Shown in pieces: positions 36,547-37,174 of a stretch of 64,000 nucleotides of DNA. A model generated the notes under the pieces. The model did not search any database and was not told where the DNA came from. It saw only the letters and a list, made by a program, of their open reading frames with translations. A program made the position numbers and the translations under genes. The stretch covers positions 213,094,001 through 213,158,000 of the forward strand of contig OZ024740.1 in assembly GCA_964016885.1 (NCBI GenBank), given 5' to 3'. Position 1 is the stretch's first letter; every line of letters starts with the position of its first letter. Origin of the DNA: Eledone cirrhosa (lineage: Eukaryota).

Positions 36547-37174
36547 TTTGGATTTAATGCTCTGAAATAGCGATATATATGTGAAGAAAAACATAGAATA
36601 TTCGAGAATATTCTGTATGTTTATAATAAACATTTTGAAGACCTAATCGCTATAGAATAGAATACGTCACGTATTACAATTTGAGATTCTCGATAAAAGC
36701 AAGGGAAGTAACCTACGCGTTTCATTCTTATTTGAAATCATCAGGATTACATATCCAATGCTTTTATCGAGAATGACACAGCTAGAGACTTATAGAATAC
36801 TTAGCTGTGTACAGGAACTGGTTTGAAAGAGCGGTTGCCGGTCCGGCAGAAATTAGAATTTGGATTTAATGCTCTGAAATAGCGATATATATGTGAAGAA
36901 AAACATAGAATATTCGAGAATATTCTGTATGTTTATAATAAACATTAACAGCTAACTATTCTATAAGTCTCTAGCTGTGTCATTCTCGATAAAAGCATTG
37001 GATATGTAATCCTGATGATTTCAAATAAGAATGAAACGCGTAGGTTACTTCCCTTGCTTTTATCGAGAATCTCAAATTGTAATACGTGACGTATTCTATT
37101 CTATAGCGATTAGGTCTTCAAAATGTTTATTATAAACATACAGAATATTCTCGAATATTCTATGTTTTTCTTCA
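36547..37174 (-). mobile_element. Retrozyme-like element: 1.28 copies of a 312-bp unit plus an inverted copy
   Basis: 36547-36634 = 36859-36946 (period 312); 36948-37174 is the reverse complement of 36582-36808; (TA)n on both sides. Confidence 0.88.
37006..37048 (+). ncRNA. Minimal type I hammerhead (mirror copy at about 36708-36750, minus strand)
   Basis: GTAATC-CTGATGA-TTTC(AAATAA)GAAT-GAAA-CGCG-TA-GGTTAC, enclosed by a perfect 16-bp stem (36982-36997 / 37055-37070). Confidence 0.82.

What the first reader, a model, noticed from the sequence alone, without database searches (positions are those of the whole stretch)
36547..37174. Second, unrelated unit (312 nt) with the same inverted-arm plus partial-tandem architecture
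Seen: period-312 direct repeat of 88 bp, a 227-bp inverted copy, and a hammerhead (CGCG stem III, GUA site) enclosed by a perfect 16-bp helix. I see no sequence similarity to the 468-nt unit. The same architecture in an unrelated sequence argues for a shared mobilisation mechanism. The fold-back puts a hammerhead on both strands.
Basis: partly seen in the sequence, partly recalled or inferred. Interest (0 to 1): 0.72.

Follow-up and report, generated by a model that had tools for sequence, protein, structure and literature searches.

The report
Hammerhead retrozyme with Penelope insertion footprint
This is one copy of an abundant, protein-free 312-base repeat carrying a predicted self-cutting RNA; its copies sit in TA repeats as two back-to-back arms with one long and one short end, so it is likely a known kind of RNA parasite (a retrozyme) that a Penelope-type transposon enzyme likely copies from one small, probably circular, RNA.

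Summary
It is one copy of a young dispersed family: 518 exact unit junctions, and 8,757 hammerhead cores with its 95%-identical 308-310-nt siblings. Of 123 loci, 106 are two head-to-head 5'-truncated arms pointing into (TA)n; 93 pair one long and one short 3' end about 35 nt apart, and none pairs like with like. That is the published Penelope-like element (PLE) 'inverted copy plus tail' footprint, and ORF-bearing PLEs in this genome show it too. Both arms of a locus share a haplotype (1.3% mismatch against 22% permuted), arms reach 11 units, and ends ignore the ribozyme cut. This fits a PLE reverse transcriptase copying one monomer, probably circular, from both ends of a DNA break. Cleavage, RNA, circles and the helper enzyme are not shown; the hammerhead is a weak, dimer-type one. 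Verdict: new member of a known kind (animal non-LTR retrozyme). This scan already noted the same pattern for other repeats in this genome, probably including the 310-nt sibling.

The parts
36547..36946 (-). Long-end arm, 400 nt: partial unit (unit positions 225-312) followed by one full unit (1-312); 3' end faces the left (TA)n
36547..36858 (-). One full 312-nt unit (U); no ATG-started reading frame over 34 codons in the unit concatenated four times
36859..36946 (-). 88-nt partial upstream copy (5'-truncated tandem unit; the direct repeat)
36547..36581 (-). About 35-nt 'tail' (unit 278-312), present only at the long end
36947..36947 (.). Central head-to-head junction, one base matching neither arm
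36948..37174 (+). Short-end arm, 227 nt (unit 51-277), ending where the unit's internal TATATA stretch meets the target (TA)n
37006..37048 (+). Type I hammerhead (stem I 6 bp, stem II U.U plus 3 bp, stem III 1 bp plus palindromic CGCG loop); predicted cut after 37042
36708..36750 (-). Same hammerhead in the other arm; predicted cut after 36714
36982..37070 (+). Perfect 16-bp helix (36982-36997 / 37055-37070) enclosing the hammerhead; mirror copy 36686-36774 on -
36150..36546 (.). (TA)n target tract, left; it follows the 3' end of an unrelated LINE-type RT ORF
37175..37358 (.). (TA)n target tract, right

Best explanation
The locus is one insertion of a multicopy, non-coding, hammerhead-bearing 312-nt repeat that is likely a non-autonomous Penelope-like element (animal non-LTR retrozyme), likely inserted by a PLE reverse transcriptase/GIY-YIG endonuclease supplied in trans. 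Shown: the family, its (TA)n targets, two head-to-head arms with variable 5' ends, one long and one short fixed 3' end, and one haplotype per locus. Inferred steps: (1) tandem copies are transcribed and the hammerheads, probably working as dimers through the ACGCGU palindrome, cut out monomers that would be ligated into circles; (2) a PLE protein, probably a dimer, binds the RNA near unit 200-312 and cuts (TA)n on both strands; (3) each target end primes reverse transcription internally, one at unit 312-313 and one at about 275-286, where the RNA's own TATATA could pair with the target; (4) each RT would run round the same monomer for a variable distance, giving partial-tandem arms; (5) the two incomplete cDNAs would be joined at the centre, mostly through 1-9 nt of microhomology.
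For: Layout: of 40 loci picked by unit similarity, 33 are two-armed, 30 of these long+short, none long+long or short+short; of 84 further loci (82 picked by a long end), 74 are two-armed, 63 long+short, none long+long. Long end at unit 313 in 102 of 119 long ends. (TA)4 lies within 24 nt beyond 91 of 93 long and 80 of 93 short ends. This matches the PLE description in PMC8557442 (inverted 5'-truncated copy, 30-40-bp tail at one end) and the two internal RT start sites in PMC11167929. In-genome control: ORF-bearing RT + GIY-YIG PLEs exist and L171 shows the same long+short head-to-head form. One template: arms differ at 15 of 1,178 site comparisons against 22% (minimum 17%) in 3,000 permutations, with 32 haplotypes among 84 loci; 13 private variants are fixed in all units of both arms (one in 19 of 19 units), against 2 shared by only some units of both arms and 277 singletons. 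Not fold-back copying: the short-end arm is the longer in 51 and the long-end arm in 30 of 93 loci. Central junctions overlap in 39 of 57, blunt in 7, gapped in 11. 5' breakpoints ignore the cut site (4 of 114 within 140-152). Recurrent changes keep the ribozyme fold: 99C>U with 159G>A in 7 of 7 complete haplotypes that carry 159A, G.U-keeping changes at 85 and 165, U.G to U-A at 147, an added stem II pair at 126.
Against: No RNA evidence was obtained. The active hammerhead fold is predicted 13 kcal/mol above the minimum-energy fold as a monomer (-22.0 against -35.0) and scores below Rfam's threshold. One locus (L035) has GUG at the cut site in all 5 covering units of both arms, so either a non-cleavable RNA was mobilised or RT misreads the ligation junction; PMC11167929 found cleavage dispensable for PLE insertion in vitro, and the 2026 preprint saw cleavage in only 1 of 9 Xenopus dimers tested. 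The core's mutation rate (0.37%) is only slightly below the rest (0.52%), as copies are young; two recurrent changes outside the ribozyme (23, 27) break predicted pairs. Six variants run through adjacent units of one arm and two through non-adjacent units, so some post-insertion duplication occurs. No ORF-bearing PLE among the 50 GIY-YIG loci or the Hydra-type loci compared has this unit as its pLTR, so the helper is not identified.
Confidence: 0.85

Rival explanations
1. Same PLE-driven insertion, but the template is an uncut linear multimer transcript from a young, homogeneous tandem array; the hammerhead is a passenger and no circle is needed.
For: Arrays of 25 or more units exist in the 308-310-nt siblings. 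Weak monomer fold; a GUG variant was mobilised (L035); PMC11167929 found unprocessed RNA to be the dominant substrate; L052 shares a variant between the outermost units of both arms but not the next unit.
Against: A linear multimer should pass its unit-private mutations to both arms; only 2 such cases against 13 locus-fixed private variants and 277 singletons. Structure-keeping changes in the ribozyme suggest selection on its fold.
Confidence: 0.25
2. The copies are 5'-truncated pLTR remnants of an autonomous PLE that was not sampled, not an independent retrozyme.
For: Autonomous PLEs here leave similar short two-armed remnants (L066, L106, L190). The hammerhead core is 26 of 28 identical to that of a Hydra-type PLE pLTR.
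Against: Upstream of every unit lies another unit, up to 11 in a row (L053); no ORF joins a unit in sense in the 124 loci inspected; beyond the core there is no similarity to that PLE.
Confidence: 0.05
3. DNA-level amplification (satellite growth, fold-back replication or eccDNA reinsertion) or an assembly artefact made the tandem and inverted form.
For: Some adjacent units share private mutations; inverted repeats in microsatellites are hard to assemble.
Against: Fixed asymmetric 3' ends with variable 5' ends over 93 loci, neither arm bounded by the other, the same footprint in ORF-bearing PLEs.
Confidence: 0.04

Closest known systems
Animal non-LTR retrozymes (Cervera and de la Pena 2020, PMC7229834: passages, axolotl section and Discussion read; Li et al., bioRxiv 10.64898/2026.07.22.740005: parts 1-3 of 5 read, supplements not seen)
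   Same: Non-coding ~300-nt, low-GC tandem unit with one type I hammerhead; stem III of one pair plus palindromic tetraloop as in axolotl HHR_Amex1, U.U at the base of stem II as in HHR_Amex2; PLEs proposed as helpers; rolling-circle RT proposed.
   Different: The parts I read do not describe two-armed insertions, fixed long/short ends or shared haplotypes between arms. There RNA, circles and cleavage were shown; here none is. Sequence is unrelated as far as tested (no Rfam hit at threshold).
Penelope-like elements, EN+ clades Neptune / Hydra / Poseidon / Naiad (Craig et al. 2021, PMC8557442: passages and Hydra section read)
   Same: Partial tandems, inverted 5'-truncated copy at the 5' end, 30-40-bp tail at one end, (TA)n targets (stated for Naiad and Hydra), hammerhead upstream of the 3' ends; non-autonomous head-to-tail Chlamys elements are mentioned there.
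   Different: No RT or endonuclease ORF; the whole element is a 312-nt unit; arrays reach 11 units per arm.
Poseidon from Anolis (Frangieh et al. 2024, PMC11167929: main text read)
   Same: Two internal RT start sites defining the tail, AT-rich target, cutting and extension of both strands, predicted dimer; ends not at the hammerhead cut.
   Different: There the start sites are not homologous to the target; here the short end sits in a TATATA stretch that could pair with (TA)n. That study used an autonomous element and a linear RNA.

Membership tests
Animal non-LTR retrozyme | Non-coding tandem unit of 150-450 nt, low GC, no LTR | tested here: met
   312-nt unit, up to 11 in tandem, no ATG frame over 34 codons
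Animal non-LTR retrozyme | Type I hammerhead core in each unit, conserved among copies | tested here: met
   351 of 362 copies intact, 109 of 111 loci with at least one intact; Rfam HH9 E 0.027, below gathering score
Animal non-LTR retrozyme | [quoted passage not shown] | tested here: met
   Met by the family (e.g. L053); not by the window copy, which has one hammerhead per arm
Animal non-LTR retrozyme | Self-cleavage of the RNA | not testable with these tools
   Monomer fold predicted weak; dimer activity by analogy with axolotl
Animal non-LTR retrozyme | Expression as monomeric linear and circular RNA | tested here: inconclusive
   No run on record as RNA was listed; contigs cannot show it
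PLE-mobilised insertion | Inverted 5'-truncated copy adjacent to a partial tandem | tested here: met
   106 of 123 loci two-armed head-to-head
PLE-mobilised insertion | 30-40-bp tail at one end only | tested here: met
   93 loci long+short, none like+like; ends at 312-313 and about 275-286
PLE-mobilised insertion | AT-rich / (TA)n target | tested here: met
   91 of 93 and 80 of 93 ends
PLE-mobilised insertion | Identified autonomous helper sharing its pLTR with the element | tested here: inconclusive
   Only the hammerhead core matches a Hydra-type pLTR; two ambiguous direct junctions point to different clades
Autonomous PLE | RT + GIY-YIG ORF | tested here: not met
   No ORF in the unit
Viroid-like / ambisense ribozyme circle | A ribozyme on each polarity of the monomer | tested here: not met
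   No antisense hammerhead core in the unit; Rfam hits are the two arm copies only

The most novel reading that the evidence does not exclude
These insertions are a direct genomic record of twin rolling-circle reverse transcription: one PLE dimer primes both ends of a cut (TA)n on the same ribozyme-made circular RNA at two fixed start sites 35 nt apart, and the two cDNAs meet head to head. This would explain the PLE inverted-copy-plus-tail structure in general and give the first mechanistic proof that animal retrozyme circles are PLE substrates.
Probability: 0.45. Interest if true: 0.7.

Novelty: new member of a known kind. Interest (0 to 1): 0.4.

Why it matters
How animal retrozymes move, and why PLE insertions carry an inverted copy and a one-sided tail, are both open: PMC7229834 and the 2026 preprint propose PLE helpers without an insertion footprint, and PMC8557442 calls the steps undefined. 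A young family with fixed start sites, one haplotype per locus and intact candidate PLE ORFs in the same genome gives a 312-nt substrate and exact predictions for an in vitro test. The element class itself is known and this genome holds many such families, so this copy adds a member and more evidence, not a new system.

Tried and rejected
RNA evidence: no RNA holder listed among 6 runs. Four of the six were laid, all as contigs of unknown kind; one run has a single 342-nt contig that wraps at period 312 and another a 340-nt contig, but a tandem array collapses the same way, so this says nothing on circles; very high depth in one run is what ~9,000 DNA copies would give. Helper search: the unit and a cousin unit against 50 GIY-YIG loci and 10 loci near Hydra-type elements gave no pLTR homology beyond the hammerhead core; the 150 GIY-YIG hits scored were of 10,597 candidates, so the search is far from complete. 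Two direct junctions were found: L252 (Hydra-type arm joined to a 312-unit arm; 1 of 124 loci) and L099 (cousin unit joined to a Neptune-type pLTR; 1 of 30). I do not count them as proof: both have long ends on both sides, against the long+short rule, and a second one-armed insertion with target deletion gives the same product. Tail length also argues against that Hydra element (about 68 nt, like the 468 family, against about 35 here). Shared 12-mer and a 32-nt 72% match with the 468-nt unit: rejected as not above shuffles. The list of diverse hammerheads was selected for pairing, so it is not used as covariation evidence. Whole-window Rfam scan: dominated by microsatellite miRNA matches. Target-site duplications could not be read inside (TA)n. 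Look-up of this sequence among earlier findings gave nothing. Rows dropped: 6 duplicate loci, one near-duplicate (L280); hits under 88% identity and unit positions 262-290 (or 272-290) were left out of variant counts.

Full report
Observation. The 88-nt direct repeat is exact at spacing 312 and the inverted arms are 99% complementary. Read in the hammerhead's sense, the locus is a minus-strand arm of 400 nt (36946 to 36547: unit positions 225-312, then 1-312), one extra base at 36947, and a plus-strand arm of 227 nt (36948-37174: unit 51-277). Both 3' ends point outward into (TA)n tracts. The hammerhead core is complete, Rfam HH9 gives E 0.027 at 20 bits, below its gathering score, and the cut would fall after 37042. 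The enclosing region folds far better than shuffles (z -6.8; circular monomer z -5.6). Stem III is one pair with a palindromic CGCG loop and stem II starts with U.U. As a monomer the active fold is predicted 13 kcal/mol above the minimum-energy fold, while two molecules can pair through ACGCGU at -7.5 kcal/mol. Axolotl retrozyme hammerheads have these same weaknesses and cleave well only as dimers (PMC7229834, section read). The unit has no antisense core and no ORF.

Family. The window lies in a 3.0-Gb animal genome. A unit search gave 257 matches in the 40 of 459 candidates scored, full units 97-100% identical. Exact patterns count 518 internal unit junctions and 126 long-end/TA junctions of one narrow form. 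The hammerhead core pattern has 8,757 matches, reversed control 0; in the 9 such loci fetched the units are 308-310-nt siblings about 95% identical to this unit, with the same ends. A more distant group of 317-320-nt units shares the order of parts at 72-76% over two stretches, with 5,489 motif matches.

Insertion anatomy. Of 40 loci picked by unit similarity, 33 are two-armed head-to-head, 30 with one long and one short end, 3 with a long and an irregular end, none like-with-like; 7 are one-armed. Of 84 further loci (82 picked by a long end, 2 by an internal junction), 74 are two-armed: 63 long+short, 7 irregular, 4 cut by the fetch edge, none long+long. After dropping one near-duplicate, 106 of 123 are two-armed. 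Long ends match the unit to position 313 in 102 of 119; short ends fall in the unit's TATATA stretch at about 275-286. (TA)4 follows 91 of 93 long and 80 of 93 short ends. The 5' breakpoints are spread over the unit, 4 of 114 near the ribozyme cut, and 39 of 57 central junctions overlap, mostly by 1-9 nt (first 64 loci). PMC8557442 describes PLE insertions as partial tandems with an inverted 5'-truncated copy and a 30-40-bp tail at one end (passages), and PMC11167929 shows that the tail is the distance between two internal RT start sites (main text). The genome holds RT + GIY-YIG ORFs of Neptune type (C-x2-5-C-x2-C linker), Hydra type (RWR, DKT, C-x-C-x5-C; Pfam finds no RT there) and one I take as Poseidon type (no linker motif; label inferred). 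L171, an ORF-bearing Neptune-type insertion, is head-to-head with a long and a short end in (TA)n: a positive control in the same genome.

Template. The two arms of a locus carry the same haplotype: 15 mismatches in 1,178 comparisons at 17 sites variable in three or more loci, against 22% on permutation (minimum 17% in 3,000), with 32 haplotypes among 84 fully covered loci. Thirteen rare variants are fixed in all covering units of both arms, one in 19 of 19 units; 2 are shared by only some units of both arms; 277 are singletons, 6 run through adjacent units of one arm and 2 through non-adjacent ones. Neither arm is bounded by the other (short-end arm longer in 51, long-end arm in 30 of 93), so one arm is not a fold-back copy of the other family-wide, although the window copy alone could not exclude that. 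The simplest reading is repeated copying of one monomer, that is a circle, from both target ends; a linear transcript of a very young homogeneous array is the main rival. Against a need for cleavage, L035 has GUG at the cut site in all five covering units. For selection on the fold: 351 of 362 cores are intact, and recurrent changes in the helix and stems keep or add pairs in the active fold, including one two-sided change; the core's mutation rate is only slightly below background and two recurrent changes elsewhere break predicted pairs.

Helper. Not identified. The hammerhead core matches a Hydra-type pLTR at 26 of 28, but about half of those letters are universal and nothing else aligns; that element's tail is about 68 nt. 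One locus joins a Hydra-type arm directly to a 312-unit arm (L252) and one joins a cousin unit to a Neptune-type pLTR (L099); both have two long ends and can be explained by a second insertion with deletion, since all these elements pile into the same TA tracts.

The 468-nt unit. It is a separate multicopy family (171 matches in 40 of 290 candidates) with two fixed ends about 70 nt apart and no significant similarity to this unit.

Comparison and novelty. It works like, and by every sequence-level test is, an animal non-LTR retrozyme; cleavage and circular RNA remain untested. PLE mobilisation by rolling-circle RT is already proposed (PMC7229834 Discussion; preprint parts 1-3 of 5; its supplements were not seen). 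Five paper searches turned up no paper whose listing or read parts describe the two-armed, long/short, single-haplotype footprint for retrozymes; the library lacks most subscription journals, so this is weak. This scan's own notes report the same footprint for many other repeats in this genome, two of them for a 310-nt unit that is probably the sibling found here (identity not checked, as no sequence is given). I reached my reading before those look-ups. Verdict: real, new member of a known kind, interest 0.40.

Noticed in passing
window 27690-29882 (-): Penelope-like RT + GIY-YIG coding region, about 27-29% identical to the Neptune-type proteins of this genome.
   Followed up: partly
window 8248-9414 (-): Hydra-type PLE coding fragment (54% to L237's ORF), with a hammerhead-like start about 140 nt downstream of the ORF end.
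   Followed up: partly
window 59550-60008 (-): Weak GIY-YIG-region match to PLE proteins.
   Followed up: no
window 35001-36057 (+): 3' end of a LINE-type RT ORF, open for about 350 codons; the TA tract that received the retrozyme follows it (class label recalled).
   Followed up: partly
window 37361-37585: End of another repeat found beside TA tracts in 7 of 325 other fetched loci.
   Followed up: no
L226 (G000:C7:35554500-35562000): Hydra-type PLE, about 5 kb from pLTR to pLTR, with a 651-codon open frame and a 3' region of about 2.8 kb, longer than the under-3-kb elements described in PMC8557442.
   Followed up: partly
L252 and L099: Direct head-to-head junctions between retrozyme arms and autonomous PLE ends (Hydra-type and Neptune-type), both with two long ends.
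   Followed up: partly
L035: Cut-site triplet GUG instead of GUA in all five covering units of both arms.
   Followed up: partly
L096-L125: 317-320-nt cousin units; several carry the U3-A8 core variant and a longer palindromic stem III; a Neptune-type PLE (L174, L127) has a similar U3-A8 hammerhead.
   Followed up: partly
G000:C1:36482527-36490619 and C1:43588073-43593649: Long arrays (27 and 19 listed units) of the 310- and 308-nt siblings.
   Followed up: no
L057, L060, L046, L068: One-armed copies whose 5' end abuts a TA tract; L057 and L060 sit in the same other repeat.
   Followed up: no
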